64,000 nt of DNA. It comes from Pachysolen tannophilus NRRL Y-2460. Its lineage: Eukaryota. Location of the stretch: NCBI GenBank assembly GCA_001661245.1, contig KV454015.1, positions 732,924 to 796,923 of the forward strand, read 5' to 3'. Shown in pieces: positions 3,042 to 64,000 of this stretch (position 1 is its first letter; the number at the start of each line of letters is the position of its first letter). The translations under genes were made by a program, and so were the position numbers. The notes below the pieces were generated by a model that was not told the DNA's origin, did no database searches, and saw nothing but the letters and a program-made list of their open reading frames with translations.

Positions 3042-4991
3042 ATGTCAACAGAAATAAATAACAATAGTGATTTAAACTCAGTCGATTCTAGAGACACTTC
3101 TGGAATGGAAGATGAAATGGTTAATGAAGTTGAGGCTTATAGCCATGCTGAAGAAAATGTGCGGCCGTTAGAAAGAGATCTGAAGGAAGATACCAGTATA
3201 GCTGGAAGGACAAGATCACATGCTTCTGAAATTCTTCGTTCATTAACACATCAAGATAACGAGGATGAGCTGGAATTATATAAGATGGTTTCTAATAATG
3301 CAGGTGTACAAAAAATATATTCGCGTTTGGAAAGCGAATATGGTAGGACTGGACCTTTGGAAGAACCAATCGATTTAGAAAGAATAGAGACTAAGCCTGA
3401 TCCCAAGTCAACTTTCCACGAAGAAGATGAATGGAAATATCCTATTGATGAAGAAACAGGACTTAGACTTGTTGAATTTGTTGTAGGCGATAAAGCTGAT
3501 CCGAGAAACTGGAAAAAAAGTAAGAAATGGTTTGTAACAATTTTATTGGGATGTATTTGTTTCAACGTTGCATTTGCCTCTGCAGTGGTTACAGGTGATA
3601 TAGATGGTCCAATGGCAACTTTCGGAGTTAGTGAGGAAGTTGTAATTTTAACTGTTACGTTGTTGGTTCTTGGATTTGGATTTGGTCCATTATTATTTTC
3701 TCCATTATCTGAAGAATTGGGAAGATCTCTGATTTATTTTTCAACTTTATTTCTTGCTTCAATTTTCATTATTCCATGTGCCGTAGCCAAAAACATTGGG
3801 ACTTTACTTGTTTTCAGACTCCTAGATGGTATTGCATTTAGTGCACCAATGACTTTAATTGGTGGTTCTTTGGCTGATATGTGGGTCAACAAAGAACGTG
3901 GTACTGCAATGGCTCTTTTCTCTGCTGCACCATTTCTTGGTCCTTGTATTGGCCCTTTGGTAGGTGGTTTTATTGGTCAATACGCTGGGCATAGTGCTTC
4001 GACGTCTCCTGTCTCCGACTATAACGTCGGATGGAGATGGATTTATTGGGTTATGTTTATTTTCACATTTTGCTTATATATATTCACGGTAGTAGTGTTA
4101 CCAGAAACACATCATACTACTATTTTGAAAAGAAGAGCTAAAAAATTAAGGAAATTAACAAAAGATAACAAGTATCGCGCAGTTGCAGAGTTAAAGATTA
4201 GAAGTAATAAGGAAATCATAAAAGAAACTTTGAAAAGACCATTACTTTTATTATCTGAAGTAATTGTTTTCTTAATCACATTATATATGTCAGTCATTTA
4301 TGGGTTGTTATACATGTTTTTTTTTGCATATCCAGTTGTTTTTGGCGAAGGTAAAGGCTGGTCAGATGCCAAGATTGGGTTAACTTTTATTCCAATTGCT
4401 TGCGGAGTCATTCTGGGAACAATACTGGCTCCATTCGTCAATGAAGATTATAATAAAAGAGCACAGAAATACTTTGATAGAGGAGAGTTACCACCACCAG
4501 AGCTACGTTTGATTCCAATGATGATTGGATGTTGGTTTGTACCTATCGGTTTGTTCATATTTGCATGGACTTCATATCCAACAGTATCTTGTTGGGGTCC
4601 AATTATTGCTGGATTTCCAGCAGGCCTGGGTTTTGTATTATTATACAACCCGGCAAATAATTATATAGTTGATTCTTATCAACATTTTGCAGCATCTGCT
4701 CTTGCAGCAAAGACTTTTGTAAGGTCTGTTTGGGGTGCATCGGTCGTCTTATTCACCGTACAAATGTATCACAGATTGGGTTATCAATGGGCAACATCTT
4801 TAATGGCATTCATTAGTTTGGCCTGCTGTGCTATCCCATATTTGTTCTTCATTTATGGAGCATCTGTTAGAAGAAAAAGTAAGTATGCTTATTCACCTTC
4901 TATTGATGATAAGGTTCAAAAGAGTGTTACAGAAACTGTATCAAGTCATAATTCGTCTTATACAAAAGGAGAAAATAATAGCATTGCATAA
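3042..4991 (+). CDS. TPO3: MFS DHA1 polyamine/drug:H+ antiporter (Tpo2/Tpo3 type)
   Basis: [37 protein letters not shown] and [14 protein letters not shown] motifs; many TM segments. Confidence 0.92.
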
Positions 4992-5314
4992 AATTTTCAA
5001 AAACTAATTGATTTTCTTGCTTGCTACTTTAATGATCATTTTATAAATCAATAAATAATATGAAACTTTAATTTTAATAAATTTAATACCATTATAACAA
5101 CTTGTAGAAGAGTAGTAAATTCTTGAATACTTAGTTAGCTACTTAACTCTTTATAAATAGACGGGTAAAATTTATCATCAGAGGCTGTAGAAATTTTTCA
5201 CCTTAAAAAGATTATTATTATGTAAATGAATAGTAAGATCTAGTTATTAATCTAGAGAAAACCTTTGTTAAAGCTAGACTGTTTCGATTAGAAGGATCTA
5301 TTAGAGAAACAGAA

Positions 5315-5608
5315 ATGACAGTAGCAGATATACAGAGTTCTCCTCTGGTAGTAGTTGCTGATACCAATATACAGTCTGAAAAATGCCCGCCAACAAAAGT
5401 AACTGCTGATGCTGATGGTACTAACAACCACAGTAAGAAACAAACTGAAGAAACAGAAACTCCAAGGGATGAAAAAAAAGATAAACTCAATAATGAGAGC
5501 AGTATATTGGATAAGTATAGTTACGGGACCGACGAAGAAGAAGAAGAAGATGAAGAAGAAAATCATGCGGGTTGTTCCTGCTGTAATTATGGACTTATAG
5601 GACAATAA
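5315..5608 (+). CDS. Small acidic hypothetical protein (97 aa) with C-terminal CSCC motif
   Basis: A-rich ATG context (ACAGAAATGA), purine-rich coding-like composition, sits alone between TPO and YOP1. Confidence 0.5.
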   Translation: MTVADIQSSPLVVVADTNIQSEKCPPTKVTADADGTNNHSKKQTEETETPRDEKKDKLNNESSILDKYSYGTDEEEEEDEEENHAGCSCCNYGLIGQ

Positions 5609-18264: not shown

Positions 18265-19446
18265 TTAAGCTTTGATTGATGAAGCTCTTCTAACCTTTCT
18301 GGCTTCTTTACGTTCGTGTAATCTTTGGGCTAATAATTGTTGGTATTCAGCTGCTTGTTCTCTTTGGAATTGAGCGTTTCTGATCTTAAGAGCCTTCAAG
18401 TGACGTTTTCTTTGTAAAGTTTGTGGAGTAACTAATCTTTGAATCTTTGGAGCTTTAGTATATTTCTTGTCACCTTTGACAACTTCACGTCTAATAACAA
18501 ATTGTCTGACATCATCTTCCTTGGTTAAACCAAAGAATTTTCTAATGTGGTTAGCACGTTTTGGACCCAATCTTTTTGGAACTGAGGTATCAGTTAAACC
18601 TGGGATTTCTTGTTCACCTTGTTTAATAACAACAAGGGACAAAACAGCTAAATCTGGACCGACAATACAACCTCTGACAGACTTTCTCTTACGTTCACCG
18701 GTTCTTCTTGGTCTGTAACATGAGTGACCTTTAGCCAATAATAACTTGACTCTGGTTGGAAGCATGACACCTTGTTTCATTGGGAAACCTTGTTTATCAT
18801 TACCACCAGTGATTCTGAAGATGTAACCTTTGAATTCATCACCAACTGAGTCACCTTCAACTTCTTGGCCCATACGTTTTTCGTAAAAGATACGTAATTT
18901 GTGTTCATCGTCGATTTCGACGGATTTTTGAGTACCGTTAGAAGGATAAGCAATGTTTAACTAGAAAAAAAAAATTGTTAGTATGAAAATTGATCAACAC
19001 TTTGATGGAAGAAGAAAAATAAGAAGAAATAACATTAAAGTAAATATTGTAAATGTCAAGAATGAACTATAATCACTACCATCTATGAGTATGCTAGTTT
19101 ATAACGTTGTATAAAGTTTGCGTGAATACTAAAATTATAAAATTTTTTGCTGATGAGATAAGTTTTCAATAGAAATTCCAAAACAGATAATTTTCAGTTT
19201 CAACAAAATCATTTGGAACAAACCATTTAAACTAATAAAATTAAATTCATTTCTTCACTATAATTTTATTCAAATTGGAATTAACTTGTATAATAGAATA
19301 ATTCTTATAAAAAAACCCATACATATATTTTCAACTTTTCCAAACTTTCTCCTTGATTCCACTTAACTCTTCTTCACTTCTATTTACTTCTATTCACTTC
19401 TATTCATTTCTCTCACTTAATCCTAAAATATCCAACATACCTTCAT
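18265..19446 (-). CDS. RPS6: 40S ribosomal protein S6; exon 1 19446-19441 (ATG AAG), exon 2 18960-18265
   Basis: [32 protein letters not shown]; 480-nt intron 19440-18961 with GTATGT, TACTAAC, TAG. Confidence 0.98.
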
Positions 19447-20253: not shown

Positions 20254-22584
20254 TTAATCTTTATGGTCATTCTTTATCCTACTTCCACCATTGGTATTTT
20301 CTTCTGTTCCTTTCTTATTTGTAGAAATTATTGCTGATCCGGCTCCAAAACTGTTTCCAAAAACACCACTCATCATCTGGGATGGACTGGGAAGCATCAT
20401 TCCACTGCTATTAGCTATAGCACTGAGCATTCCACCAACACCTCCTCCTGAACCAGTACTTGCGTTGTTGGAGTTTTCATTATTATTTGCCGTTCCAGTA
20501 CCAATATTATTACTATTAACCATTGAACTTGTTAAACCTGAACTTCTCAAATTGCTCGGTCCACCACCAATAGGAGTATTTCCTGTTCCAAAAGGTATAT
20601 TCCACTCATTTGTATAAAAATTTGAAGGGGAAGGAAATAAGTAATCTGTGTTTAAGTATTTACTTGGTAATGCAGACAACGGAGTTTCTCCATTGAACAA
20701 TGCTCCGTTATTAATATTATGAAACGGCGGCCTAAATCCACTGCTATTGACCGGGTTGTTCCCATTGTTCGTAATGACGCTATTGCTACCACCATTATTA
20801 TTAGGCGCATTCGGTATAAATGGAGAAGGGAAAAGATTTGAATTAGTAACATTATGAGTACCTGAAGGTGATGGTTGTGGCAACACAAAGTATCCATTTG
20901 GTCCATTTGCAGATATTGGTGTTGATTTAGACGAATTCGAATTCCCTCCTTCTTGTGGATGCGGCGTGTTAGCTGTAATTGATAATCCTGGCAATATCGG
21001 CTTATGCAGGCGTGAACTGGTTCCCCTTCCTCCAGCATCGCCACCACCATTCCCAATAGACTCATTGTGAAGGTTTTTATTGCTGAAATTAGCATCGTTT
21101 TCATTTTTAGATTCGGCAGTCATCGTTACAGCACTATCACTTTTCTCAACATTCAAATTATGGTTATTTTCATCATTACCTTTGGTATTGGCATTGCTAT
21201 TATTGCTTTGGTTTTGATGACTATTTTGATTATTCAGGTCACCATTATTAATTTTGTTATTATTGTTATTATTATTATTATTGTTGTTGTCGTTATTATT
21301 ATTATTATTTTCATTATCATTCAATGTACTTTTACCATTATTTGGCGATGCTTCTGAATTAGAACTAGGAATTTGAACTCTTAAAATTGGTCTATGCAAT
21401 GCAGTATTGCCACTTATATTATTCCCACTCGCGCTACTATTGACACTATAGGCAGGACTTGAAACATAAGGGTATGATGAAGCGTTTCCTCCCATATTTG
21501 TACTATCGTTCCGAGATCCGACGTACTGAGTTTGATGCAACTGTGAAGAAATATTTGCTGTGCTAGAACCTGAATTTGGAACCACGGCAGTACCAGCAGT
21601 ACCATTATGATGTACAGGGAATGTAGAAAAAGGGGGTAATGTGCTAGGATACAGTTGTTGTTTCATAAGTGAAGCACGATGCTGTTCGAAAGTTGTTTGA
21701 ATTCTTGATTGATCTTGTGGCAGCCCATACATCACACCTGCTGGACCTGGACCTGGACCTAGTCCTAGTCCTGTTCCCTGATGTTGACGGAGCAGTTGCA
21801 GTTGCAGTTGCTGCAGTTGTTGTTGCTGTTGATAGTTGTGTTGATCTTTTGATAACGACAAAGAATCATTTTGTTTTGGAGTCATTGATTTCGAGGAGGA
21901 TTGTGAGGATCTCAGGGACTGTGATTTTTTCAATCTATTGGATGAAGGGCGTTTTGATGGGGTTTGTGAATTAGTTCTTTTCAAATCTTCCATTCTCCTT
22001 GATATAATCCTACGACGTTTTGGGTTTTGAACTTCATCCATATCAGTACCATTTAAGTCCCCTTCTACATTCTCTAATTTTGCCTCATTTTCGTCTTCTT
22101 CCTCTATAGTCAATTGCCGTCCCGTTGCAACCCTTTTCCTATTACGGCTATCCAATTTATGTCCTTCTTCTTCATCATCATCGTCCTCTTCATCTCCACC
22201 TTCTTCACTTTCACTTACATCAAAATCTTCATCATCAAATTCCGGAGTCGACAGGTGTGAAACAACTTTATTGACATTTCCTCTCCTTCCATTTGGATCT
22301 CTTGATATTCTAGATTTTTTAACATAATCACCATAATCACCAGGTGATTTTTGTTCTTGAATCTTTGATGCAGTATTATATTTTTTTAATAATTCTTGAG
22401 TATTATCTGAAGAAAATTCATAAACTTTATGGTTATGTCCAACAATAATAACTGCAAGATCAACTTGACATAATATAGCTAATTCATGTGCTTTTTTAAA
22501 TAAACCTGCTTTCCTCTTCACAAATGTAACAGTTCTATTACGCTCATCCGTGATGGGCTGAATGGCTATCTTTCTTCTCCCCAT
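20254..22584 (-). CDS. RLM1: MEF2-type MADS-box transcription factor
   Basis: [59 protein letters not shown]; poly-N/Q tracts; adjacent to RPS6 as in S. cerevisiae. Confidence 0.93.
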
Positions 22585-22868: not shown

Positions 22869-22918
<50 letters not shown>

Positions 22919-23498
22919 NNNNNNNNNNNNNNNNNNNNNNNNNNNNNNNNNNNNNNNNNNNNNNNNNNNNNNNNNNNNNNNNNNNNNNNNNNNNNNNNNN
23001 NNNNNNNNNNNNNNNNNNNNNNNNNNNNNNNNNNNNNNNNNNNNNNNNNNNNNNNNNNNNNNNNNNNNNNNNNNNNNNNNNNNNNNNNNNNNNNNNNNNN
23101 NNNNNNNNNNNNNNNNNNNNNNNNNNNNNNNNNNNNNNNNNNNNNNNNNNNNNNNNNNNNNNNNNNNNNNNNNNNNNNNNNNNNNNNNNNNNNNNNNNNN
23201 NNNNNNNNNNNNNNNNNNNNNNNNNNNNNNNNNNNNNNNNNNNNNNNNNNNNNNNNNNNNNNNNNNNNNNNNNNNNNNNNNNNNNNNNNNNNNNNNNNNN
23301 NNNNNNNNNNNNNNNNNNNNNNNNNNNNNNNNNNNNNNNNNNNNNNNNNNNNNNNNNNNNNNNNNNNNNNNNNNNNNNNNNNNNNNNNNNNNNNNNNNNN
23401 NNNNNNNNNNNNNNNNNNNNNNNNNNNNNNNNNNNNNNNNNNNNNNNNNNNNNNNNNNNNNNNNNNNNNNNNNNNNNNNNNNNNNNNNNNNNNNNNNN
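22919..23498. other. Assembly gap (580 N) flanked by long poly-T tracts
   Basis: Run of n; homopolymers on both sides. Confidence 0.99.
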
Positions 23499-26219: not shown

Positions 26220-27119
26220 TTATAGTCTAATTTCTAGTCTCTTTTCAGCTCTTTTCAGATCATCCAGCTTGATTGCTTCCCGTATCTGATCTGTTATCCT
26301 GCATGCAATTTCATATGCTAAATTAGAGCAGTCCATAATAACCATCGCATCTATAGATAATCCTCCGGCTTTACTAATTTGTACGAGTTCTCTATTTTTA
26401 TTCATTGTCAAAGTTAAGCTACCATACAGTAACAACTCTTCCCCCATAGTGGGGTCAACGACTATTAGTTCAGCATTGGAATCACCCTTGATATTTTCTT
26501 CAACATCATTTGGATTGAAAAATGCAAAAGTTACACAGATTGGGATATGTAATATGGAGAGTGGAACAGGTACTCTTTCATTAATAGGATGAACTATGAT
26601 TTCTTGATGCTCATTTATTGTAATATCCGGTTTTTTAAAATGTAATAATGCACATAATACACCAATACAACTAATATCTGCAAAATTTCCATCATAATCT
26701 AAATAATGTATATCAGCTCTAATTGACCAACATTTTTCACCTGCAATTATACACAAACTTTCCAAATCTAATGCATTTGAACGTCTGACAGCCTTCTCAA
26801 TCAATCGGCTAATTAATATTTCTTCATCTGATTGCCTACCACTTTCAAACATGGCACTTGCCATCGGTGAAATCTCCGTATTGATCATAAAAAGTCCTTC
26901 AAAAGGTCTATCTTCAAAAGGTGCCACTATCTCTGCAGATATCCTAACTGCTATTCTAGTCTTACCCAATTTCACATCAACAGATCCATAACTATTTCCT
27001 ATATTGATTTCAACATCTCTAAATTCATTCAACTTTCTACCATCTAATCTTAAGCCTTGCTTCAAAGATTCAAGCTCAAAGTCCTTGGCAACATTGGACA
27101 CATCTATTCCTTTAGGCAT
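26220..27119 (-). CDS. RRP45: Exosome RNase PH-like subunit (ATG at 27119)
   Basis: RLDGR, DRPFEG, LIEKAVRRSNALDLESLCI, QISKAGG. Confidence 0.96.
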   Translation of the reverse strand: MPKGIDVSNVAKDFELESLKQGLRLDGRKLNEFRDVEINIGNSYGSVDVKLGKTRIAVRISAEIVAPFEDRPFEGLFMINTEISPMASAMFESGRQSDEEILISRLIEKAVRRSNALDLESLCIIAGEKCWSIRADIHYLDYDGNFADISCIGVLCALLHFKKPDITINEHQEIIVHPINERVPVPLSILHIPICVTFAFFNPNDVEENIKGDSNAELIVVDPTMGEELLLYGSLTLTMNKNRELVQISKAGGLSIDAMVIMDCSNLAYEIACRITDQIREAIKLDDLKRAEKRLEIRL

Positions 27120-30431: not shown

Positions 30432-31043
30432 ATGGTAAGTTAAGTACTGAGATTGGTATGGAATATATTAGAGAAACATCAATTTTTCTTTTTTTTTTTG
30501 AAACAAAGGAAAAAAAGAGCTATTACTAACTAGTTATTTATCGATTAGTCAGGTTTACCTCCAAGTTGGACGATAAAGATTTCAAAGACTCATAATAGAG
30601 AATATTATTATAATTCAGAAACTGAAGAATCATCATGGGAACCTCCTTATGGAACAGATACAGAAAAATTGAAACAATATCTTCTTTCTAATTTGCATAA
30701 ACCTGAACAAATTAAATGTAGCCACTTGTTAATAAAGCATCGTGATTCTCGAAGACCAAAATCTTGGAAATCAGAAGAACCAATTACAAGAACAAAAGAA
30801 GAAGCAATCCAGATATTAAAAGGATATCAACAACTGATTAAAGAAGGAACAGCTACATTATCAGAAATCGCTGCAAAGGAAAGTGATGATTCTTCTCATG
30901 CTAAAAATGGTGATTTGGGATGGTTCACAAAAGGTCAGATGCAACCTTCTTTTGAAAAAGCTGCTTTTGCATTACAAATTGGTGAAGTAAGTGATATTGT
31001 AGAAAGTGATAGCGGTGTTCATTTGATTGAACGAACAGGTTGA
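30432..31043 (+). CDS. ESS1: Parvulin/Pin1 peptidyl-prolyl isomerase; exon 1 is ATG only (30432-30434), exon 2 30549-31043
   Basis: Intron 30435-30548 GTAAGT/TACTAAC/TAG restores the WW domain (GLPPSW..YYYN..SWEPP); HLLIKH.DSRRP, GDLGWF, MQPSFE. Confidence 0.95.
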
Positions 31044-31398: not shown

Positions 31399-34266
31399 AT
31401 GATTTTGAAGAGTCTCACGCCCTTCAAAGCTAGTAGGAGTTTTTTACAGTCCTTGCACGGCTTCAGAAATAAGCAACAATATTTATTCAAATCTAATTCT
31501 CAATTACTATTAAATAATTATAATAATCGTAAATATCACTCAATTAGATATTATTGTGCTTTCCATTCATCGAATAATATGTCTTCAACAACGTGAGTAT
31601 TGATTAATTGCTTTTCTTGTTGTTGTTACAATTCAATTTAATTGATTAAATCAAGTTACTAACACTATATTAAATGATATTTAAAAATTTATAGTGTTAC
31701 CACTGATAGACAAGTTTTACCGACCAATGTCAAGCCAACAAAATATAATGTAATCTTGGATCCAAATTTCCAAACTTTTACTTATGAAGGTGAAATTACT
31801 ATTGATTTTAATGTTAATGACAAGAAATCCGATTTTATATCATTAAATACTCTTGAATTGGAATTACATGAAACAAAAATTTTAGGTAAAGATTTAGCTC
31901 CAATTGAAACTACATATGATAAAGATTCTGAGACTACAACTTTTAAATTTGATACTCCATTGGAAGATGATAAACTTCAATTATATATCAAGTTTTCTGG
32001 TATCTTGAATGATAAAATGTGCGGTTTTTATAGATCGTCTTATGAATTGAATGGTGAAAAGAAATATATCGCATCCACTCAAATGGAATCAACCGATTGT
32101 CGTAGAGCATTCCCATCTTATGATGAACCATCTGCTAAAGCAGTTTTCGATATCACTTTAATTGCTGATAAAAAATTCACTTGTTTATCAAATATGGATG
32201 TTAAAGATACTATTAATTTACCTAATGATAGGAAAAAAGTTGTCTTCAATACAACACCATTGATGTCAACTTATTTGGTTGCTTTCGTTATTGGAGAATT
32301 TGGTTATATTGAATCAAATGACTACAAAGTTCCTATTAGAGTTTATACCACTCCTGGTTCAGAAGAAAAGGGTAGATTTGCTTTAGAAACAGCAGTAGAA
32401 GCTTTAAATTTCTATGATAAAAAATTTGGAATCAATTATCCATTGCCTAAATTAGATATGGTAGCCATTCCTGATTTTAGTGCTGGTGCCATGGAAAACT
32501 TTGGTTTGATTACTTATAGGGTTGTTTTAATCCTTTATGATGAAAAAACTTCAACACCTTCTGCTAAACAAAGAGTAGGTGAAGTTGTTGCTCATGAACT
32601 AGCTCATCAATGGTTTGGTAATCTTGTTACCATGGATTGGTGGGAAGGCCTTTGGTTAAATGAAGGTTTTGCCACCTGGGTTTCTTGGTATTTCTTAAAT
32701 TATAGATATCCAGAGTGGAAAGTTTGGGAACAATATGTAGGTGATTCTTTACAAAGTGCTTTGGGACTTGATGGCTTAAGATCATCTCATCCAGTAGAAG
32801 TCCCAATTCAAAGACATGATCAAATAAGTCAAATATTTGATTCCATTTCTTATGCAAAAGGTTCTTGTGTGTTGAAAATGATTGCAAATTGGTTAGGTGA
32901 AGATGTTTTCATCAAAGGGGTAGCAAAATATTTAGAAAAACATGCTTGGGGAAATACCAAGACTTCAGACTTATGGGAGTCATTATCTGAAGTTTCAGGG
33001 GAAGATGTAGTCAAAGTAATGAACATTTGGACAAAACATGTTGGTTATCCAATTTTGACGGTCAATGAAAATAATAATGAGATAAAAATTCAACAAAACC
33101 GTTATTTAGCAACCCACGATGTTAAACCAGAGGAAGATGAATTATTATATACAGTATTTTTGGCCTTGAAAACAAAGGATAAAATTGACGAGTCTCTTAT
33201 ATTAGATACAAGAAGTACTTCGTTGACATTAGAAGATCCTTCTTTTTACAAATTGAACGCAAATCAAACAGGTATCTACAGAACTTTGTATACCCCTGAA
33301 AGATGGGCAAAGTTGGGTGTATCCGGTACTCAGGGTTTGCTCTCTGCAGAAGATCGTACTGGTTTAGTTGCTGATGCTGGTGCTTTAGCATCTTCTGGTT
33401 ATGCTTCTACTGAAAACTTGTTTTCTTTGGTAAATAATTGGAAGAATGAATCTAGTTTCACTGTTTGGAATGAAATCTTGTCTAGAATCAACGCTGTTAA
33501 AAATGCATTTATATTTGAACCTCAAGAAGTCCAAGATGCATTACAAGATTTCACAAGAAGTTTGGTTTCTGTCAAATTAAAGGAAGTTGGCTGGGAGTTA
33601 CATGCTCTGGATTCATTTTTGGATCAAAGATTAAAAGGCCTCTTGTTTGGTGCTGCTACTAAATCCGGAGATCCAACTGCATTAAAAGCAGCTCAAGCCA
33701 TGTTTGACAAGTATGTACTGGGCGACAAAGAAGCAATTCCTGTAAACTTGAGAGATCAAGTCTTTGGAGCTGTTGCTAAATTGTCTTCAGATGACTATTA
33801 TGATAACTTGTTATCAATTTTCAAGAATCCTTCTTCACCTGATGAAGGAATTGCTGCTTTGAGAGCTCTTGGATCTTTTGAAAAGCCAGAACTTATTAAA
33901 AGGACCTTATCTTATTTGTTAGATGGTACTGTCAGAACACAGGATATTTATGTACCAATGGTAACATTGGCTAGTCAGAAAAACGGAATTGAGTTGTTGT
34001 TCCAATGGCTCACAGAAAATTTAGAAGCTATTACTAAGGCTTTAAGTGTTAACATCTTAGCCATGGTTGTAAGTATTTGTACTCGTGGTTTTACCTCCAG
34101 AGAACAGAAGAATCGTGTTCAAGAATTTTTCAAGAACCAGGACACAAAGGGTTACGACCAATCTTTAGCTCAAATGTTAGATGTTATCCAAACTAAGATT
34201 TCATGGGTTGAAAGAGATTCAGAAAATGTTAAGAAATGGTTATCGCAAAACGGGTTTATGAAATAA
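31399..34266 (+). CDS. APE2: M1 zinc aminopeptidase; exons 31399-31592 and 31695-34266
   Basis: GAMEN, HELAH..E; intron 31593-31694 GTGAGT/TACTAAC/TAG joins to DRQVLPTNVKP in frame. Confidence 0.94.
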
Positions 34267-38700: not shown

Positions 38701-40435
38701 TTTCAATTTCTATTTCTAGTTTTTTCGTCTTGATTGCAGATTTCAGTAAAGCAGGTCTAGATGACAAGCTCCATAAATAATATCTCACAATAGATACAGT
38801 CAAATAAACACGCTGCGTATCATCATTTTTTCTATAACTGGACACACACCAATTCAAAAGTAGTTTTAAATGGAGCTTCCAGTCATTTGAAGTATTATCA
38901 GGGGTACTTTCATTATTGTCATCTAGTGTTTTGTTGGTAATTTCAAAAATCAATTTTGACAACTCGTTTATATTGGAACCATTGAAAGAATCTAGTTTTT
39001 TTATGATACTGACTGAAGATGCGGGATTAAGATTGTTATCAGGGAAATCAATCATAAGTGATTCGTTCCTATAACTTATAATTTCAAATTGCAGTGATAT
39101 AATTGGATTGTTCAAATCTATGATTTTTTGTAAAACCGGTTTCAATAATAACCAATTGTTTGGAATTATGAAAGAGCTCGAATTATAATAAAATAAATAA
39201 AATATTAAAAATTTTAAATTCGAAAGTAGCGACTTTCGTATACTTTTTGTTAATGTTGTATCCTCCAATAACTTGAGATAGTTCAAAAGCATGAACTCAC
39301 TTAATTCATTCGACAAGTAGTCAACTTTAATCAATTGAAACCAAAACAACTTGATGATAATGATATGAAATGAAATTAATTTAAAATCACCAGTACTATA
39401 TTCATAACTATTTTCTGATTTTTCGTCATTATATATTTTTTTTAAAAATTTTACTATCCAATTCAAGAAGACCTCTTGATTTATCAATTCTTCCAAGTAT
39501 AAATGTGCAGTTAACTTGATTATGTAGTTCAAATTATCTTTCCAACTATTTTCAATATTTGAAGTTGGTGCTGTTTCTTTTTCTTTATATGTAAAACAAT
39601 CTCTTGCAATTTTTTCCATGTACTCTGTTACTTGTATTGTCCAATCATGAATCCAATTATTCTCTGAGATCTTTGCGTTATTACCACCAGTCAGTACAAT
39701 ACTTCCTGGAGCATTTTTTCTTCTTAAACCTCTTAACTCATTTGTTCCCACACATTTGACAAACCATATAGCTCTAGGTATGGGTATTTTCTTACTACAG
39801 CATTGATCCAACAATAGTTTGTTCCTAATACCATGAGGAATAGTTCTTGATAATCTACTCAAAGGATCATCTGGATTGGCCAAATTCTGTAACCACAATT
39901 CTTTCTTATGGTCAGTCAATGTCACTCTTGGTGGCGGCTTATATGCTGATTTCACATGGACTCTATTATACTCTTGCCTCAAATTCATAGCTTCTATTAT
40001 ATTCTCACTTAAAGCATTCAACTTTGAATTTGTTGAAGTTGTCTTATTAACTATTTGATCAGAATCACTGTTACTTGTTACCGTTGTTCCAGCACTACTG
40101 TTATTCATATTATCTGTATTCAAAAGCTGATGCACCATATTTTTGGCAGAGAGTAATTCATTATTTACCACCGGCAGACTATAATAACCTTTTTGAAGAT
40201 GATTTTGCATCACCACATCCTGCTGAGGATTATATGACCAAGGATTGAAGTCTGGATATACATAATGCTTTTTACCTGCGTTATGGAATGATGATGGTGG
40301 ATTATTTGATGAGTTTGAATTACTGAACGGTTCATCACCGTTAAGAGGAAAAACGTCCTTAGGTTTTTCTAAAACATATCTCTTGATTGGACTGGTTTCC
40401 GTTGCATTACCAGTCCCTTTATGATTCTTATTCAT
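35729..40435 (-). CDS. SRB8: Mediator kinase-module subunit Med12
   Basis: YPDFNPW, PPPRVTLTDHKKELWLQNLA, LSRTIPHG, RAIWFVKCVGTNE. Confidence 0.92.
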   Translation of the reverse strand: MNKNHKGTGNATETSPIKRYVLEKPKDVFPLNGDEPFSNSNSSNNPPSSFHNAGKKHYVYPDFNPWSYNPQQDVVMQNHLQKGYYSLPVVNNELLSAKNMVHQLLNTDNMNNSSAGTTVTSNSDSDQIVNKTTSTNSKLNALSENIIEAMNLRQEYNRVHVKSAYKPPPRVTLTDHKKELWLQNLANPDDPLSRLSRTIPHGIRNKLLLDQCCSKKIPIPRAIWFVKCVGTNELRGLRRKNAPGSIVLTGGNNAKISENNWIHDWTIQVTEYMEKIARDCFTYKEKETAPTSNIENSWKDNLNYIIKLTAHLYLEELINQEVFLNWIVKFLKKIYNDEKSENSYEYSTGDFKLISFHIIIIKLFWFQLIKVDYLSNELSEFMLLNYLKLLEDTTLTKSIRKSLLSNLKFLIFYLFYYNSSSFIIPNNWLLLKPVLQKIIDLNNPIISLQFEIISYRNESLMIDFPDNNLNPASSVSIIKKLDSFNGSNINELSKLIFEITNKTLDDNNESTPDNTSNDWKLHLKLLLNWCVSSYRKNDDTQRVYLTVSIVRYYLWSLSSRPALLKSAIKTKKLEIEIEILEFIYLINDKFSKSLVGTHEQELPVNIDNFLILVNKLYVSKLFTVSSYLRRLISSGIIYLPKALDNCMVHLLIIQNLPILNNTQCNTILKTLTNEEVGSSMDMDMEFQKSKKIISIFLDYMIDNDDLLNFDNDYNWEFLNSLNLGLKFLTADHLFNELRTRINNSQKLVTVTKEKIAVCYKLFEILNNNSKFFQEFLSYVLVNENRMINLYLETLYFITEIVSSNYTLVNSLTPLVWDGNGSTASTVFTRILVMVISNYNFLKSNDSFNFIDFWKFSIEVTKENNLLNDLNNLVIYETTNRENELGKEDLLEILRDFKIENLNPDEFLDQYHFKDNVVMLLHNFLDQIRLESINGEYLSQSLESIIKLLQVLKNSNRTSLDTILMEYINNDILPSLYLDFDAYLKFIMKLLIHEFMSLMQVIQIFGKEETIADNITGNSNHKLIWYLLLREDINCHLTHYESLKFKLIKQNFELTHPSYILKYIVKGILEAQSNTNITAVSPDSTAAVVMETQMGNVMDHLPTPVSNNNATPLPLISGATPMIIDSVHFKNTFLSAFHKKISKVFNKLLFTNAPLLIEQVVSNDFINEDEMLEIFNELLLLDSKAIFNSKDLYRVMEVLNNFNLPICQVALKIIFENEFGSDKSDDFKLISIQDILMMLFSNSRQMEEKRIQNDNNNCRLLSQLFDLLSPDLKLLVLNAAESYFLRSENFPKVYLPSSENESLVPYLIDIINNCSKTSNNCEHKALPLTDSLIFSLNLSLEKLIDSCDKVINVSDSNYQSSLSENIIERNSTVMGKEHEELCTSISLFLKIILIHKTFLVDLILKRSVDLSTDTFLQNLVKLYSSTIVSHNSKLKNLLYDILLSLEILFTEAISVNMESFKLQEEASTANGASNESSLRANTGSIMQLPPLNTKNKLSIFLKDLKLRDGLIDLNNTQKLYLYNEKAELYQKFKSKPFDLIEDSNPIIGMNNSSVSLQLFNALIEKKNPG

Positions 40436-41555: not shown

Positions 41556-42944
41556 CTATGGCAATGGTTCACTAGAGGAACTCAATTTATTCAAATGTAA
41601 ATATACATCAGTTCCATAACCTTCCATACTAATTAATTTCAAATCGCCTCCAAAATATTTTGCATATAATCTACTCAAAGGTAATCCATAACCATATCCA
41701 GCCATTGGAGGTCTCAGATCGGTTTTAGTAACATCTGGGTCGACATTAGGTAATGCGTCAACTGTTGTATATAGATAAGTCCAAATCAATGGGATAGCAC
41801 TTCTTGCGATTCCTCCACCTTCATCAGAAATCTTTATTGTTATATCTTCATTTCCCTCTGCTACAATGATCCTTATAGGAGGATACTTAATATCATCAAT
41901 ATCCATATCTTTATATTTTTTTATCTGATGTTCCACAGTGGCCCGAAGTGAATTTTTCAAAGTTTCAAATAACATATGTAATAAATGTCCGGGAACATAC
42001 ATAAAATTTAATTCTTCAGGACAATAAAGTTGTACTTTTGGAGCTTCAAATAATCCATAATGTTCTTCACATACAAATCTTGCACTATCTATAGCATCAT
42101 TAACAATATCAGAAATATTGGTATTTAAACAAATTATCCCCACGTAATCATCATTTAAAGCAGAATAATCTTGATTTATTGCAATTTGTTGTCCAATTAA
42201 CATTCTAATTCCAATTCTTGAAAGATAAAATGCATCAAGAAAATTTTGAATTTGAGAATCTATTAATAAATTTTTGTTTGATCTTTTCCATTCTTGAACA
42301 CCACGAGCAACAGTAGTTACTGTTGCATCATGTCTTTTTTTAATTTTTTTCAAAGTTTCAGTAACTAATTTGTTATAATTATAAACTTCAGCAGGATATA
42401 CAATATCTGAAGGAGCATATATATAATAAGATTTTGTACGTTGTATACCTGAAGAGGTAAAATCTAGCAGCAGAGGCACGTGTAAATGTTGCCTTGGTTT
42501 TCTTATAATCAATCCATCATCTTCAAAAATTCTTTTTTCTGGTCCAATTTTTGTTGGTTCAGGTGGCAGTGATGGTTGTAGAGGAATATGGAAATCATTT
42601 GAACCATTCTTGTATAATAATTCTTTTAATTCTCCATCAATCTTTGGAGGTTGTAAAGTAGTCAACTCTTCAAAAGATTGACTATACCAATCTTTAACTT
42701 TTAAAATAGACAGATTATCACTCAATCCATATGGAAGTTCTTCTAATTCTTTAACTCTATGTGCTAATCTAACTGGAAGCTCTTGAACAACAAATTGTGA
42801 TGCATGGAAAAGTGTACCAGCAGAAGGTTTTGGTCCAAACTTAACCATATCTTTTAAAGAAACTCCTGTAGGTTGTAACTTTGCATAATTATATATCTCT
42901 TGTCGAAGCTTTGGAGTTAACTTCCACAGCGTCGACGACATCAT
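41556..42944 (-). CDS. Mitochondrial pyruvate dehydrogenase kinase family (ATG at 42944 or 42941)
   Basis: ELPVRLAHRV, SRIGIRMLIGQ, ETLKNSLRA, ISDEGGG, MAGYGYGLPLSRLYA. Confidence 0.93.
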   Translation of the reverse strand: MMSSTLWKLTPKLRQEIYNYAKLQPTGVSLKDMVKFGPKPSAGTLFHASQFVVQELPVRLAHRVKELEELPYGLSDNLSILKVKDWYSQSFEELTTLQPPKIDGELKELLYKNGSNDFHIPLQPSLPPEPTKIGPEKRIFEDDGLIIRKPRQHLHVPLLLDFTSSGIQRTKSYYIYAPSDIVYPAEVYNYNKLVTETLKKIKKRHDATVTTVARGVQEWKRSNKNLLIDSQIQNFLDAFYLSRIGIRMLIGQQIAINQDYSALNDDYVGIICLNTNISDIVNDAIDSARFVCEEHYGLFEAPKVQLYCPEELNFMYVPGHLLHMLFETLKNSLRATVEHQIKKYKDMDIDDIKYPPIRIIVAEGNEDITIKISDEGGGIARSAIPLIWTYLYTTVDALPNVDPDVTKTDLRPPMAGYGYGLPLSRLYAKYFGGDLKLISMEGYGTDVYLHLNKLSSSSEPLP

Positions 42945-43675: not shown

Positions 43676-45091
43676 ATGCCTCCATCAACGTTATATGTTA
43701 CTGGATTTCTGAAAGGAACAAAAGCAGAGGAAATTGGTAATTTGTTTGAAAAGTAAGTTAAAAAATATCGGTACTATTTTGTATCCCGCCCTTTGAATTT
43801 TTTTTTTTCAAAAAAAATAATTAATAATTATTTATTTTGCGATATTTGATTTGATTTTTTTTTTTTTTTTAGTTTTATTGACCTCAAATTCAAATTTTAG
43901 TATCATCATTTTCCGTTTGGTAAAAAAGGAAGGGAATCACTTCAGTTTTTCATCAATGTGAAAAAAAAAAAAAATTCATGATACAAAAATTAAATTGAGA
44001 TCTATCTCACACTCTCTCTACCTTTTTTTTTATTTTTTTTTTCCGCCTTCATCTCATTTCATCATTTCAAGTCCTTCCTTCTCACGATCCTCCTTTCATT
44101 TATTCATTCATTCATCCATTAATTCATTCATTCATCATCTTTCCTGTGTGTGTGTGTGTGTGGTTTTCTTTTTTTTTTTTTTTTTTTTTATTCTATTGAT
44201 ATTTTGTTTATATTCATCATTTTCATCATTCCCATAATTATCAAAAAAAAATTCTTGTTATTTCATCATTCATTTTCCAGAAAGAATACTAACTTATCAA
44301 TTTGAACAAAAAAAAAACTCAATTCTTTTTTTTTTTTTAATAGATTCGGACTGATTCGCAGAGTAGATATTCCACCTCCAAGAACAGATGATGGTCAACA
44401 ATATGCTTTCATCGAATATATAGAGGTTAAAGATGCTGAAGATGCATTGGATCAAACAAAAGATGGGTTTGTGTGTGAGTATGCCATTGATAAGGAACGT
44501 GGTGTTGTTGTTCAAATGGCAAGAAGTGAGCCTTATTCTGTAAGAAACTATAGAGGAAGAGGTGGATTTAGTGGGCGTTCTCGTGGTGGTTATAGAGATA
44601 GAGGTTATGACAGAAGACCACCACGAGGAGGTTACGGCGGACCACCTCCTCCAAGAGGAAGTTATGGTGGTAGGTATGATGATAGAAGACTTGATGACAG
44701 AAGACTTGACGATAGAAGACTTGATGATAGAAGACCCCCACCACGCAGGTATGATGATGGAAGAAGACCTTCATATCCACCAAGAGGTGGTCCAGGAGAT
44801 AGAGGAGATAGGTACCCTCCAAGAGAGAGAGGAGGATATCCATCAATGCCTAGAGGAGATCGTGAACGCATGCGTGATTACCTGCCAAGAGAAAGAGATT
44901 ACCCACCAAGGGAAAGGGAAAGAGAAAGGGACTATCCACCAGTTGATCGTGATCGGGATTTTGATCTTGGTAGAGATGCGGATCGCGGTCGCAGTCATGA
45001 CCGTGACGACGATGGTTATACAAATGAAAGAAAAGAGTACGATAGATCACCAATTCGTGATCGTTCAAGATCTCCTATCCGCGACGATTAA
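43676..45091 (+). CDS. SR-like RRM protein (S. pombe Srp1 type); exons 43676-43752 and 44344-45091
   Basis: Splicing the 591-nt intron (GTAAGT 43753, TACTAAC 44287, TAG 44343) gives RNP2 LYVTGF and RNP1-like YAFIEY; RGG, (DDRRL)n, RD/RE and RSRSP tail. Confidence 0.88.
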
Positions 45092-49763: not shown

Positions 49764-49782
49764 AGGGTATATCCTAAAAATA

Positions 49783-52408: not shown

Positions 52409-55432
<3,024 letters not shown>

Positions 55433-55727: not shown

Positions 55728-57818
55728 CTAAGCAATGGTTCCTAAACTCCATAATAGAATTTGTAGGAAAAACTGTAATGACCAAAACGTAATTTTCTTT
55801 GCTCTTTCTGTTCTGACCTGTTCATCAGCAACGTAGTTAACAAACGCATCATAAACCTCTGCACTGATATCATCCATTAATAACGAGTCGTAAATGGTCC
55901 AGGAACCATCAAAGTCCTGAATATTCTTGATCACTTGACATTTTATGGCGATATAAGTTTTCTTTGAATTTATGTAACCAACAATAGGTCTGATAAGGGC
56001 ACTATTAACATAAGAGAGTTCTGGAGTAAATAAGGGAACTGCAGCTCTTACGTTTCTTAAACGGATTTGTAAATCAAGAACGAAATATTTTGAGATATCT
56101 TTCTTGATATTTTCTTCTGTTGAAACCTGTGTGTTTTGACCAGTTTTGGATGCCAGCAGTTCCAACTCCAGTTGCTGCAGTTGCAGCATCTTCAGCAGTT
56201 CTACTTGTTGCAGAGCGGTGGAAAAACGGTTTTTATGTGCATGGTAATATCTACTTGTCTCCTTTGATATGCTTTTCGCAATAATTGATACAACTTCTTT
56301 TATATTCAAACTTTCTTCTTCTGGAACCATAATATCTCCTATCATATCAACATTACCACTAGAAATCCAACCAAAAGGTCCATCTAGTCCGGTGTTAAGA
56401 TGATCAACATTCAAGTTATCTACCCTTAACCTTGTTACCCTTTTCCATGGTGAGTTTTCTTCATCATTATTACTATCATAATTATTATCATTAAATCTAA
56501 AATTACTTTGCTCATTAAAATCATTAAATCGTTGCTTTTTATGTATGGTAAATAATGAATCATCATATGTACCTGACATGTTTCTAGCATTTAATATATC
56601 GTAAAACAACCAGTTCTTACGTAAAATTGGTAAATCAGCATTGAAAATACTGACATTGAATACTCTAAAATTATTAGGTTGCATTAATGTAAATAAAACA
56701 TCTTCCATTTTAAAATTTTCAATTTCCCAATCACCAGGTTGATGTATATTTTTATAATTTGTTGCTAAATCTCCTTCTTCCCAATAAACATGGGCTCTAT
56801 CAATAACACCTCTCATTCCTTTCACTTCAACTTCTTTTAATATTCCTTTCCCATTCACCCATTTGCTAAAAGAAAGTGATACACTTACTTCGTCTATTGT
56901 CAAATCGAATTGCGTATAGTTACCGTCATCGTATTCTTCTTCGTCATTATTATTATCCTTTTTATCCTTAATAGAAGTAACAGCAGCAGCAGCTGCTGCA
57001 GCTGCTGCTACAGCATTTGTTTGGGAACCTTTTTCAAATTTTTTCTGACTTGCTGGTCTTCTACAAACAAAACATTTTTTAAATAAAATTTTCCCATCTC
57101 TCCAACTTGGAACAATTGCACTTTCAAAAATAACAGTTAATTTGGAATTTTTTGTTATGAAATTACCAATGGCTTTGGCAACAAACTCTTGAGCAAAAAC
57201 AGTATTAACAGTATATAAAACTAACGAAACAAAAGTTGTTGTACCAACAATAATCAAGGCAACATTACCAATAACGATCCAAGAAAAAAATGCACTAAAA
57301 TCATCTGTATTGAAAGGCCTCACACTTTTTATCAATAACCATTTCAACCTGATATATAATTTTTCAGGAAAATTTTTCGCCATTTGCAACAACTCTTCTC
57401 TAGAAACAGATTTTCTAGGTGTTTGTATTGTGTTTTGTTTCCCATTTGAATCAATACTTTCTTCATTTTTCATTTGCACATCAGAATCAATTTTTTTACT
57501 TTCTTCTTTCTTATCTCCCAATTTCGAATTTGATTTTGATTTTGATTCTGATTCGGATTCTGATTCCGAAGTGACATAGTTCCTAGTCAATTGAAAACAA
57601 TACAGAGATTTGAAAATGATACCATGACCTCTAGTTATACCGCCTTTATTGAAAAGTGTAAAAGCTCTATTGACATTACTACCACTGTTTAAAAACCGGT
57701 ACGAAATCATCGAAGTACTTGCAAAACATCTCGGTGTGGTATTCAAGGAAACCCTTGCTAAACGCCATGTTTGTCTTATCGGCAGTTGGACACCTGATAT
57801 CCCTAATCTCGTTAACAT
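55728..57818 (-). CDS. MDM31: Mitochondrial inner-membrane morphology protein (ATG at 57818)
   Basis: RPFNTDD..AFFSW, DDGNYTQFDLTI, FDGSWTIYDS; basic presequence. Confidence 0.92.
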   Translation of the reverse strand: MLTRLGISGVQLPIRQTWRLARVSLNTTPRCFASTSMISYRFLNSGSNVNRAFTLFNKGGITRGHGIIFKSLYCFQLTRNYVTSESESESESKSKSNSKLGDKKEESKKIDSDVQMKNEESIDSNGKQNTIQTPRKSVSREELLQMAKNFPEKLYIRLKWLLIKSVRPFNTDDFSAFFSWIVIGNVALIIVGTTTFVSLVLYTVNTVFAQEFVAKAIGNFITKNSKLTVIFESAIVPSWRDGKILFKKCFVCRRPASQKKFEKGSQTNAVAAAAAAAAAVTSIKDKKDNNNDEEEYDDGNYTQFDLTIDEVSVSLSFSKWVNGKGILKEVEVKGMRGVIDRAHVYWEEGDLATNYKNIHQPGDWEIENFKMEDVLFTLMQPNNFRVFNVSIFNADLPILRKNWLFYDILNARNMSGTYDDSLFTIHKKQRFNDFNEQSNFRFNDNNYDSNNDEENSPWKRVTRLRVDNLNVDHLNTGLDGPFGWISSGNVDMIGDIMVPEEESLNIKEVVSIIAKSISKETSRYYHAHKNRFSTALQQVELLKMLQLQQLELELLASKTGQNTQVSTEENIKKDISKYFVLDLQIRLRNVRAAVPLFTPELSYVNSALIRPIVGYINSKKTYIAIKCQVIKNIQDFDGSWTIYDSLLMDDISAEVYDAFVNYVADEQVRTERAKKITFWSLQFFLQILLWSLGTIA

Positions 57819-61170: not shown

Positions 61171-61251
61171 ACGTTTCTTGTGAATAGATTATAAATACGA
61201 TAAATACGAATGTAAATTAACGATTAAATTTATTTATGTAAAACTCTATTA

Positions 61252-62523
61252 TTAATTTATATCTGGTATATTTTCTTCCTCAAATTTTACCTCTACTTTT
61301 GGTAAATCATTATATAGAATACTATTGTCGCTGACAATGTTCTTAGGTAAATAATCTCCATTTTCAGCTAAGAATTGATGTCTAATCGAACTATCATTTT
61401 CTGCTAAGTTATTTATCTTTATATTGAACTCATTAATTAAACTCTTAATTTTGCTATTATACAATTTTCTTCTTTGCAATTCGACTTTTAAATCTTTGAA
61501 AGATTTTATAAAAAGTTCATAGTATTCGACTAAAGAGTTAATATCACTGTTGATATCAGTTAAACACTTTAAATTTGTTTTCAAATTATCACTTAATTTA
61601 TTTACTTGAACTAATTGATCTGATTTGAATCTTAGTCCAAATATTTTTAACTCATCCAATAAATTTAAAATTGACTGATAGTTACTATTAAACTGAGCTA
61701 AATTTTGATTTTCAATCTGATCACAATTTGACTCTAAATTTTTATTTATATTCATTAAATCATTATAAACTAAAGGTAATTCCAAGTAATCGTTTTCTAA
61801 TACTTTGAAGATTTGTAATTTTGCCTCACTGGAATTTGACTTAACTTTTATAAATTCTATTGATTCCAAACACTGGTCATAGTGATTTGTCAAACTTTCT
61901 AATATTAATGCCATCTCTTGTTCTAACAGATTATTTGATTCTATAAGTTTGTTAATATTTGCAGTAATTTTGTCTATTGAATTGAGATTTGATGATATTT
62001 GGTTCAACTTGTTATTAAAATCATTGATTGATATGGTTAATGAAGAAATCAATGATGACAAAGTATTTTTATCATTTTCTAAAGAAGTGAGTATATCAGA
62101 ATTGTTATGTATTATCATATTGACTTCTTCCTGATTTATGAAATGATAAAGCGTTTTATTATGATCATCTATACCTTTAACTGATTTTAACTTATCCAAG
62201 ATATTCTCCAACCTATTTTTAACCAAGTCTTCATTAATCCCATAATTCAGATTATAACTACCAGTAATCTCATCAAATAACTTATTCAAACTATCTTTCA
62301 AAATATCCAACAATCTCAATTGTTGCCTTATCGAATCGATGTAGAATTGATAGCTATTATTATTCACCAAGAGATTAATCTTGAATACAGTAGCATTTAA
62401 CAACTTGTTCGAGTTGTTACATATTATATTTGAGTTAGACAAGATCAACCTCGATTCCACTATTATCTTATTCTGTATAATATTGATCAATTCATCATCA
62501 TTATATCTATTTGTCGTTGTCAT
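61252..62523 (-). CDS. ATG17: Autophagy scaffold Atg17
   Basis: KTLYHFI, LEQEMA.ILESLTNHYDQC, EL.RR, F...NGDYLP. Confidence 0.88.
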   Translation of the reverse strand: MTTTNRYNDDELINIIQNKIIVESRLILSNSNIICNNSNKLLNATVFKINLLVNNNSYQFYIDSIRQQLRLLDILKDSLNKLFDEITGSYNLNYGINEDLVKNRLENILDKLKSVKGIDDHNKTLYHFINQEEVNMIIHNNSDILTSLENDKNTLSSLISSLTISINDFNNKLNQISSNLNSIDKITANINKLIESNNLLEQEMALILESLTNHYDQCLESIEFIKVKSNSSEAKLQIFKVLENDYLELPLVYNDLMNINKNLESNCDQIENQNLAQFNSNYQSILNLLDELKIFGLRFKSDQLVQVNKLSDNLKTNLKCLTDINSDINSLVEYYELFIKSFKDLKVELQRRKLYNSKIKSLINEFNIKINNLAENDSSIRHQFLAENGDYLPKNIVSDNSILYNDLPKVEVKFEEENIPDIN

Positions 62524-62660
62524 TCTAAGTCCTGTTTAAATTTATATGTAAATTTGTACGATTTAATAAATAATTTTAAGTACCTTTATATTTTTTTAAA
62601 AAGGAAAAGAAGAAATCACATTTAGTAAAATATTAAATAATATTCTCATCTTTCAGTAGA

Positions 62661-64000
62661 ATGAGCCTGAATAAGAGGAAGAGAAATGTATTCATAAGAG
62701 ACTTTAAACCAGATGAATTATTGAACAAGGTATTTAATAAGGATAACAATGGAATTGGAGAAGATGCTGAAACAATGGATACAGATTACAGCGACGATTC
62801 AAGAGCTGATACGAAAACGACAAGGAATTTTGGGTTTGGACATCAGATGTTTGTTAAGCTGGGAGGATCAACTCCAAGTATGGTTAATGAACTGGACTCA
62901 AACATGATGGGGACCATTGGGAACATGGGGAGTATGGGGAGTATGGCCAGTTTGCTGAATATGGCAAATCGTGATGACTATTATGAAGAAGAACATAACG
63001 ACAAAGACGACCAAGATAATGAGCCAAGTTTTGGTAATGCAACTAAGTTGATGGATTTTGTTAAGACTGATTTAGAGACACAGCCAGTTGAAAGAATAGT
63101 AACACCCAGAGATATAGTGCTAGATCTGGAACATGATGTTCCTGTAGATAGATCAGGAAAATACGGTATTGGTGCTAAGCTTTTACTGAAGATGGGTTAT
63201 AAGGAGGGCCAGGGTTTGGGTAAAAATGGTAAAGGTATTGTTGAGCCTATACAAACAAACCTAAGACCTCAAGGACTTGGTGTTGGTGGTGTTAAGGAAA
63301 AGAAAAATAAAGACAGAAAGCACGGGAAAGATGAGAATGTCACAGAGGATGATAGTATTGATTACGCTTCGAGTGATGATGATGAGTTTTCTGACTCAAA
63401 TTTAAAACATCAGAAAAAGAGCAACACACTGTACATTCCCGATTTGTTCACTGTCATTGATACTATGGAAAGTAATGGATTGAAGGTTCCGATAGTTTTC
63501 AAAGAAATATCTGATAACTATTACAATAATATGGACAAAGATCAGGTTGATAATGAGAAACAACCATTTATTCAATTGAAAAAACCAAATGATGATATCA
63601 TAGATGTTGATATTTCCAAATTAAGTTTACAATTGAATAATATCAATAGACTGTTTAAGGAGATTAGTGATAAAGAAGTTTATCAAAATTACCATCTATC
63701 ACAGTTAAATCTAATTATAAGTAAGAGCGAGAAGAACACCATGTTATTAGACTATATAATCAACAAATTTGAGGAGTATCAACACGATATTTCAAATGAT
63801 GATCAAAGCGTTAAATTGGAAAAACTTACTAACTTGTTGAAAGAATTTATGAATAATGTTGATATCATTACATGCGCCATGAGCCAACAAGATGATTTAG
63901 ATATAGAGAGAATTATAGTTTCCCTGTTAAAAGAACAATATGATGATATTGTTGAAAATTGGGATCCTTTAAATTTCGAATCGACTGAAGGATTAGTTGA
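62661..64000 (+). CDS. SPP382: G-patch spliceosome disassembly factor (TFIP11/Ntr1 type), 3'-partial and absent from the ORF track
   Basis: ATG 62661 in frame with the G-patch [29 protein letters not shown] (from 63162); divergent from ATG17 as in S. cerevisiae. Confidence 0.85.

What the first reader, a model, noticed from the sequence alone, without database searches (positions are those of the whole stretch)
3042..63188. Nuclear CUG codon appears reassigned away from Leu, most likely to Ala
Seen: in-frame CTG codons occur at TPO 4425 (TI-x-APF), APE2 33718 (YV-x-GDKEAIP) and 33607, Med12 40175-40177 (GYYS-x-PVV), PDK 42711-42713 (DN-x-SI), MCM6 53390-53392 (DT-x-LASH), RRP45 26265 and 26256 (K-x-DD-x-KR), the SR RRM (FG-x-IR) and the G-patch 63186 (LL-x-KMG). 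RPS6 has no CTG Leu. Recalled homologs have non-Leu residues at these sites, e.g. Tpo2 TIAAPF, Ape2 YCSGNKEAIP, PDK MPSI, Mcm6 DTELASH. Established: CUG-Ala (Pachysolen, Nakazawaea, Peterozyma) and CUG-Ser clades exist. Inference: Ala fits best (TIAAPF, KADDAKR, LLAKMG), but Ser is not excluded, and a few sites (TPO 4413 and 4626, PDK TD-x-RPP) align to hydrophobic residues. The supplied translations are therefore probably wrong at CTG.
Basis: partly seen in the sequence, partly recalled or inferred. Interest (0 to 1): 0.75.

Follow-up and report, generated by a model that had tools for sequence, protein, structure and literature searches.

The report
Known yeast CUG-to-alanine genetic code

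Summary
All 11 listed CTG positions are in frame. CTG does not behave as Leu: over 45 aligned sites homologues carry Leu 9% of the time, against 55-61% at the other Leu codons, and Ala or Ser beats Leu in 16 of 19 Pfam domains. Alignments alone do NOT separate Ala from Ser. The tRNA and the species do. Outside the window lies one intronless 72-nt tRNA gene with anticodon CAG, G3:U70, A73 and a short variable loop, 68-72% identical to the Ala tRNAs. Two genes of this genome match public records labelled Pachysolen tannophilus, which carry Ala at all 40 CTG sites; the window's transporter record equals the table-26 translation. CUG=Ala in this species was shown by mass spectrometry (PMC4937558, PMC5951914). 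The scan noted this before on other pieces of this genome. Verdict: real, already known. Side points: CTG sites look unlike ordinary Ala sites, and mitochondrial CUN looks like Leu, not Thr.

The parts
3042..4988 (+). MFS polyamine/multidrug transporter (TPO/NAG4-like), 649 aa, 6 in-frame CTG (3180, 3270, 3729, 4413, 4425, 4626)
   Evidence: homologue names; public record P0001 equals the table-26 translation exactly, Ala at 6 of 6 CTG; columns P40, I39/L22, V37/I31/A11, F71%
26256..26258 (-). CTG in RRP45 C-terminal helix
   Evidence: aligned to E (budding yeast), K (two other structures)
26265..26267 (-). CTG in RRP45 C-terminal helix
   Evidence: aligned to E, E, N
26427..26429 (-).
   Evidence: aligned to R, R, M; RNase_PH_C bits Leu 40.2, Ala 42.7, Ser 43.1
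30834..30836 (+).
   Evidence: aligned to R, R, K, K
33607..33609 (+). CTG in APE2 aminopeptidase C-terminal domain
   Evidence: G29 N15 D11 S11, Ala 1, Leu 0% over 150 representatives
33718..33720 (+). CTG in APE2 aminopeptidase C-terminal domain
   Evidence: K20 A17 N10, Leu 2, Ser 4%
40175..40177 (-). CTG in Med12 N-terminal region
   Evidence: Aligned to T in the one structure hit
41715..41717 (-). CTG in PDK C-terminal kinase domain
   Evidence: aligned to R in human PDK4 in a gapped stretch
42711..42713 (-). CTG in PDK regulatory domain
   Evidence: Aligned to S (PDK4) or P (PDK3)
44351..44353 (+). CTG in the RRM exon of an SR-like protein
   Evidence: not tested against homologues
53390..53392 (-). 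CTG in MCM6 ATPase domain
   Evidence: Aligned to E in budding-yeast Mcm6; the other two aligned MCM6 CTGs (54500, 52784) face F and D
56154..56213 (-). Cluster of 8 CTG among Gln/Glu/Ala codons in the MDM31/32 gene; reads as an Ala/Gln-rich segment under table 26
   Evidence: translation and bits Leu 762.0, Ala 764.0, Ser 763.6
63186..63188 (+). CTG in the G-patch motif
   Evidence: Aligned to E, A, S, Q, M; G-patch bits Leu 54.8, Ala 57.8, Ser 55.6

Best explanation
The window is nuclear DNA of Pachysolen tannophilus (order Alaninales, NCBI table 26). A single-copy tRNA gene outside the window (G000:C6:217831-217902, minus strand) is an alanine tRNA whose anticodon mutated to CAG. Alanyl-tRNA synthetase recognises the G3:U70 pair and A73 rather than the anticodon, so it charges this tRNA with Ala, and every CUG is read as Ala. 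The long variable arm that Leu and Ser synthetases need is absent. CUU/CUC and CUA stay Leu through tRNA-Leu(AAG) and tRNA-Leu(UAG). Shown here: the codons, their departure from Leu behaviour, the tRNA anatomy, the species label. Taken from papers: the charging rule and the peptide evidence. Inferred: that no Leu- or Ser-type tRNA-CAG competes.
For: tRNA: G1:C72, G2:C71, G3:U70, C4:G69, A73, G37, anticodon CAG, short variable loop, no intron; identity 52/72 and 51/72 to two Ala(AGC), 49/72 to Ala(UGC), 41/72 to Leu(UAA), 33/72 to Ser(AGA); one copy by DNA search. No long-arm or intron-bearing CAG tRNA: 0 of 5 matches were tRNAs, and 0 of 9 class II tRNA matches had CAG. Species: dynein and midasin stretches match records labelled P. 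tannophilus with no mismatch except at CTG, where the records have Ala at 40 of 40 sites; next-best hits 51% and 58%. Codon usage of 128 ORFs correlates r=0.995 (36 codons, log counts) with the published P. tannophilus table. Leu rejected. Ala is the residue most enriched over background at CTG columns (P=0.0004; Leu 0.024, Ser 0.028); one 97%-Ala column and no column above 41% Leu or 38% Ser. Published LC-MS/MS: 97.2% of 907 fully supported CUG positions Ala (PMC4937558); 243 of 256, share 0.949 (PMC5951914 supplement 1).
Against: Alignment tallies do not prefer Ala to Ser: raw log-likelihood Ser -133.4 vs Ala -134.2, background-corrected Ser -4.5 vs Ala -17.0; Ser scores above Ala in 12 of 19 Pfam domains. 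Mean Ala share at CTG columns is 0.10 against 0.48-0.49 at GCN codons. Only 1 of 6 CTG columns conserved at 70% or more is Ala. The neighbourhood of 491 CTG codons resembles that of Gln (r=0.62), with no Ala enrichment (0.042 vs 0.066 near Ala codons). The Ala in public records reflects the annotators' choice of table, so it is not independent evidence. The tRNA searches are incomplete: 63 of 1003 Rfam candidates scored, patterns exact. No peptide or charging data were produced here.
Confidence: 0.97

Rival explanations
1. CUG is read as Ser, as in the Candida (Ser1) or Ascoidea/Saccharomycopsis (Ser2) clades.
For: Ser ties with or slightly beats Ala in the alignment scores and in 12 of 19 Pfam domains.
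Against: The only tRNA-CAG found has no long variable arm and is 33/72 identical to tRNA-Ser(AGA); no CTG column exceeds 38% Ser; Ser share at CTG columns 0.09 vs 0.34-0.36 at Ser codons; the species is the one in which CUG=Ala was measured.
Confidence: 0.01
2. CUG is mostly Ala but partly Leu (several per cent), through wobble by tRNA-Leu(UAG) or mischarging helped by G37, which would suit the sites in hydrophobic columns.
For: tRNA-Leu(UAG) is present and the tRNA-CAG has G37; some CTG columns are hydrophobic (4413 I/L/V, 4626 F; dynein columns with 32-41% Leu); the published tally has 87 of 554 conserved CTG sites opposite Leu.
Against: PMC4937558 finds CUG as unambiguous as AUG; in PMC5951914 only 13 of 256 calls were not Ala. 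Leu-like columns are explained as well by Leu codons mutating to CTG where Ala is tolerated.
Confidence: 0.04
3. The code is standard and CTG is a rare Leu codon that happens to sit at variable positions.
For: CTG columns are mostly variable (3 of 45 conserved at 80% or more); Leu share is slightly above the non-Leu background (P=0.024).
Against: Other rare Leu codons (CTC, CTA) behave as Leu (0.50, 0.63); even in variable columns ln(pA/pL) is +0.13 for CTG against -1.55 and -1.72 for Leu codons; no Leu-type tRNA-CAG found; Ala-type tRNA-CAG present.
Confidence: 0.005

Closest known systems
Pachysolen tannophilus nuclear code, CUG=Ala (NCBI translation table 26; Muhlhausen et al. 2016, PMC4937558)
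   Same: Same species by record label; tRNA-CAG with G3:U70, A73, G37 and no extended variable loop, as the paper describes; public proteins already translated this way.
   Different: No difference found. The published tRNA sequence is in figures that are not held, so letter-for-letter identity was not checked (two short terms gave 0 hits in 6 supplement files).
CUG-Ala clade / order Alaninales: Pachysolen, Nakazawaea, Peterozyma (PMC5951914; PMC11182611)
   Same: Single-copy, intronless tA(CAG) closer to tA(AGC) than tA(UGC), as PMC5951914 supplement 1 states.
   Different: Synteny at the tRNA locus with the other genera was not tested.
CUG-Ser1 (Candida) and CUG-Ser2 (Ascoidea, Saccharomycopsis) codes
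   Same: Same codon captured by an anticodon-mutated tRNA whose synthetase ignores the anticodon.
   Different: Those tRNAs are Ser-type with a long variable arm, and most Ser2 species keep a second tRNA-Leu(CAG); neither was found here.

Membership tests
CUG-Ala clade (table 26) | tRNA with CAG anticodon and Ala identity elements (G3:U70, 5' GGGC, A73) | tested here: met
CUG-Ala clade (table 26) | Short variable loop; tRNA derived from the Ala family; single copy | tested here: met
   72 nt; 49-52/72 to Ala tRNAs vs 41/72 Leu and 33/72 Ser; one DNA match
CUG-Ala clade (table 26) | No competing tRNA-Leu(CAG) or tRNA-Ser(CAG) | tested here: inconclusive
   None among matches or among the 50 loci taken from the 63 scored Rfam hits and scanned; the searches are not exhaustive (63 of 1003 candidates scored)
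CUG-Ala clade (table 26) | CUG does not align to conserved Leu | tested here: met
CUG-Ala clade (table 26) | Ala is the top residue opposite CUG in homologues | tested here: inconclusive
   Ala 0.098, Leu 0.092, Ser 0.088 over 45 sites; likelihood tie with Ser. The published genome-wide tally is also weak: Ala 167.5 of 554 (30%), Leu 87
CUG-Ala clade (table 26) | Placement in Pachysolen, Nakazawaea or Peterozyma | tested here: met
   Record labels at full identity outside CTG; codon usage r=0.995
CUG-Ala clade (table 26) | Peptides show Ala at CUG | not testable with these tools
   Published for this species; not repeated here
CUG-Ser1 / CUG-Ser2 clades (table 12) | tRNA-CAG of Ser type with long variable arm | tested here: not met
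CUG-Ser1 / CUG-Ser2 clades (table 12) | CUG at conserved Ser columns | tested here: not met
   0 of 6 CTG columns conserved at 70% or more is Ser; maximum 38%

The most novel reading that the evidence does not exclude
CUG-Ala is a mutational island: it lies two base changes from the nearest ordinary Ala codon, but one change from Pro (CCG), Gln (CAG), Met (ATG), Val (GTG), Arg and Leu codons. Most CUG sites would then be recent substitutions from those residues to Ala, not inherited Ala positions. The recoding would have opened a new one-step route to Ala that shapes variable regions and Gln/Ala repeats in this yeast. Support: 4 of 6 conserved CTG columns are P, Q, M, V, against 4 V and no P, Q or M among 151 conserved GCN columns; CTG context is Gln-like; the published tally has Pro 53 and Gln 40 of 554. 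Small sample; two narrow paper searches found nothing, which does not show it is unpublished.
Probability: 0.5. Interest if true: 0.3.

Novelty: already known. Interest (0 to 1): 0.08.

Why it matters
Practically, every gene of this genome must be translated with table 26; standard translation puts Leu at over a hundred wrong positions in this window alone. Scientifically, sense-codon reassignment in nuclear genes is rare and was a notable result in 2016, but this is the species in which it was discovered, so the finding adds nothing to it. A useful lesson for the scan: a 64-kb window can reject Leu but cannot tell Ala from Ser; the tRNA or peptides are needed.

Tried and rejected
No tRNA gene lies in the window. 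The Rfam tRNA search scored only 63 of 1003 candidates and did not list the CAG gene; a pattern search found it (1 of 5 matches was a tRNA). ARAGORN names it tRNA-Leu from the anticodon alone; rejected on the acceptor stem and variable loop. Transporter alignment (119 homologues): uninformative for Ala, hydrophobic at three sites. Likelihood classifier on 45 columns: picks the right residue for all 20 control codons but ties Ser and Ala for CTG. Pfam three-code scan of 20 of the 26 CTG-bearing main ORFs: 3 had no family at E<=1e-8; I kept 19 domain rows by hand (CTG inside or at the edge of the match) and dropped 12 rows without a CTG and 2 overlapping clan members; dropped rows moved by up to 0.4 bits, which sets the noise; Ala and Ser not separated. 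Codon-context test on 491 CTG: pointed to Gln-rich surroundings, neither Ala nor Ser; it also misplaced several control codons, e.g. GCG. Looking for the tRNA's letters in the supplements of PMC5951914 gave 0 hits; the alignment there is a figure. Sequencing reads, structure prediction and complex prediction were not used: they do not bear on codon meaning.
Full report
Observation. The window is AT-rich (30% GC), gene-dense budding-yeast DNA at G000:C5:732924-796923. All 11 numbered positions read CTG in frame; the two sites given without numbers are at 44351 and 41715; the RPS6 exon has none. In 30 main ORFs CTG occurs 111 times from the first ATG, beside TTA 690, TTG 472, CTT 155, CTA 81 and CTC 32. 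Most CTGs lie in low-complexity or variable stretches.

Is CTG Leu? I aligned homologues to four genes with CTG left as X in the alignment: the window's transporter (119 homologues) and APE2 (150 representatives), and dynein and midasin from elsewhere in G000 (119 each). The two window searches were sent under table 26, the other two with X. Self records were left out and rows weighted at 80% identity. Of 48 CTG sites 45 had at most 20% gaps. The mean Leu share was 0.092, against 0.55 for CTA/CTT/CTC and 0.61 for TTA/TTG; 0 of 10,000 resamples fell that low. No CTG column exceeded 41% Leu. Solved-structure alignments agree: MCM6 F, E, D; RRP45 R, E, E; PDK S or P; ESS1 R or K; Med12 T; G-patch E, A, S, Q, M. 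Scoring 20 window ORFs under tables 1, 26 and 12 against Pfam, Ala beat Leu in 16 of 19 domains (1 tie, 2 losses, sum +26.0 bits) and Ser beat Leu in 16 of 19 (+28.2 bits) (sums by hand). Leu is rejected.

Ala or Ser? Conservation does not decide. Log-likelihoods over the 45 columns were Ser -133.4, Ala -134.2, Leu -138.9; corrected for background, Ser -4.5 and Ala -17.0. Ser outscored Ala in 12 of 19 Pfam domains. In Ala's favour, its share is the most enriched over background (P=0.0004, Leu 0.024, Ser 0.028), and one midasin column is 97% Ala while none passes 38% Ser. This weak signal matches the published genome-wide tally for the species: Ala 167.5, Leu 87, Pro 53, Gln 40, Ser 24 of 554.

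The tRNA decides. No tRNA lies in the window. A pattern search of G000 found a 72-nt intronless gene at C6:217831-217902 (minus strand) with anticodon CAG. Its acceptor stem has G1:C72, G2:C71, G3:U70, C4:G69 and A73; position 37 is G; the variable loop is short. It shares its first 12 bases with the genome's Ala tRNAs and is 52/72 and 51/72 identical to two Ala(AGC), 49/72 to Ala(UGC), 41/72 to Leu(UAA) and 33/72 to Ser(AGA). It is single-copy. Searches for a long-arm or intron-bearing CAG tRNA found none; the CUN box is otherwise served by tRNA-Leu(AAG) and an intron-bearing tRNA-Leu(UAG). These searches are not exhaustive.

Species. The top hits for dynein and midasin are records labelled Pachysolen tannophilus; they differ from the query only at the X positions, and carry Ala at 40 of 40. 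The window's transporter record equals the table-26 translation letter for letter. That Ala is the annotators' choice, not independent evidence, but it shows the recoding is already in the databases. Codon usage of 128 ORFs (92,759 codons) tracks the published table at r=0.995 over 36 codons; no other species' table was compared.

Mechanism. Shown here: codon behaviour, tRNA anatomy, species label. From papers: G3:U70 and A73 are the main Ala identity elements, Leu and Ser tRNAs need the long variable arm, and LC-MS/MS gives Ala at 97.2% of 907 fully supported CUG positions (PMC4937558; abstract, introduction, results and part of the discussion read). PMC5951914 (abstract, results, start of discussion; supplement passages and two parts of the BLAST tables) gives 243 of 256 and derives the gene from tA(AGC), which my identities mildly favour. 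PMC11182611 (passages) names the order Alaninales and diagnoses it by this code. Figures with the published tRNA sequence are not held. Inferred: AlaRS charges the C6 tRNA, and tRNA-Leu(UAG) does not compete much.

Why the sites look odd. CTG is two base changes from any GCN codon but one from CCG, CAG, ATG, GTG, CGG and Leu codons (follows from the code table). The six CTG columns conserved at 70% or more are A, P, Q, M, V and F, whereas 130 of 151 such GCN columns are Ala. The surroundings of 491 CTG codons resemble those of Gln, not Ala. The sample is small. Two narrow paper searches returned nothing, so I do not claim this is unpublished.

Earlier notes. Eight listed notes of this scan on other pieces of the same genome reach the same verdict. 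I had found the tRNA and stated my reading before seeing them; they are not independent support.

Verdict. Observation confirmed, interpretation supported, already known. Interest 0.08.

Noticed in passing
G000:C10 (L101:2840-3907, L102:2082-3239, L010:1791-1863): C10 is a 28,450-base mitochondrial contig. It has a short tRNA with anticodon AAG. CTN codons in cob and nad1 align to I, L, L and I, V, L, L, F in the best structure hits, none of 8 to Thr, and ATA is very common. This fits table 4, whereas PMC9154068 (section 9 read) lists this species under table 3. Its supplementary tables were not read and may bear on this.
   Followed up: partly
window 21793-21816 (-) and 56154-56213 (-): CTG alternates with Gln codons in a MADS-box factor and in the MDM31/32 gene, giving Gln/Ala repeats under table 26; genome-wide CTG context is Gln-rich.
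   Followed up: partly
G000:C8:422116-422249 (L100): tRNA-Leu(UAG) with an intron of about 50 bases; only one such gene was seen.
   Followed up: no
window about 22900-23480: Assembly gap; the window holds 580 N, and the run is flanked by poly-T tracts.
   Followed up: no
window 24905-26035 (-) and 1774-2547 (+): ORFs of 377 and 258 codons; the first had no Pfam family at E<=1e-8, the second was not scanned.
   Followed up: no
window 18268-18960 (-), 30549-31040 (+), 31678-34263 (+), 44306-45088 (+): RPS6, ESS1, APE2 and the SR-like gene have no ATG at the start of their conserved frame, which suggests short 5' exons and introns (inference, not mapped).
   Followed up: no
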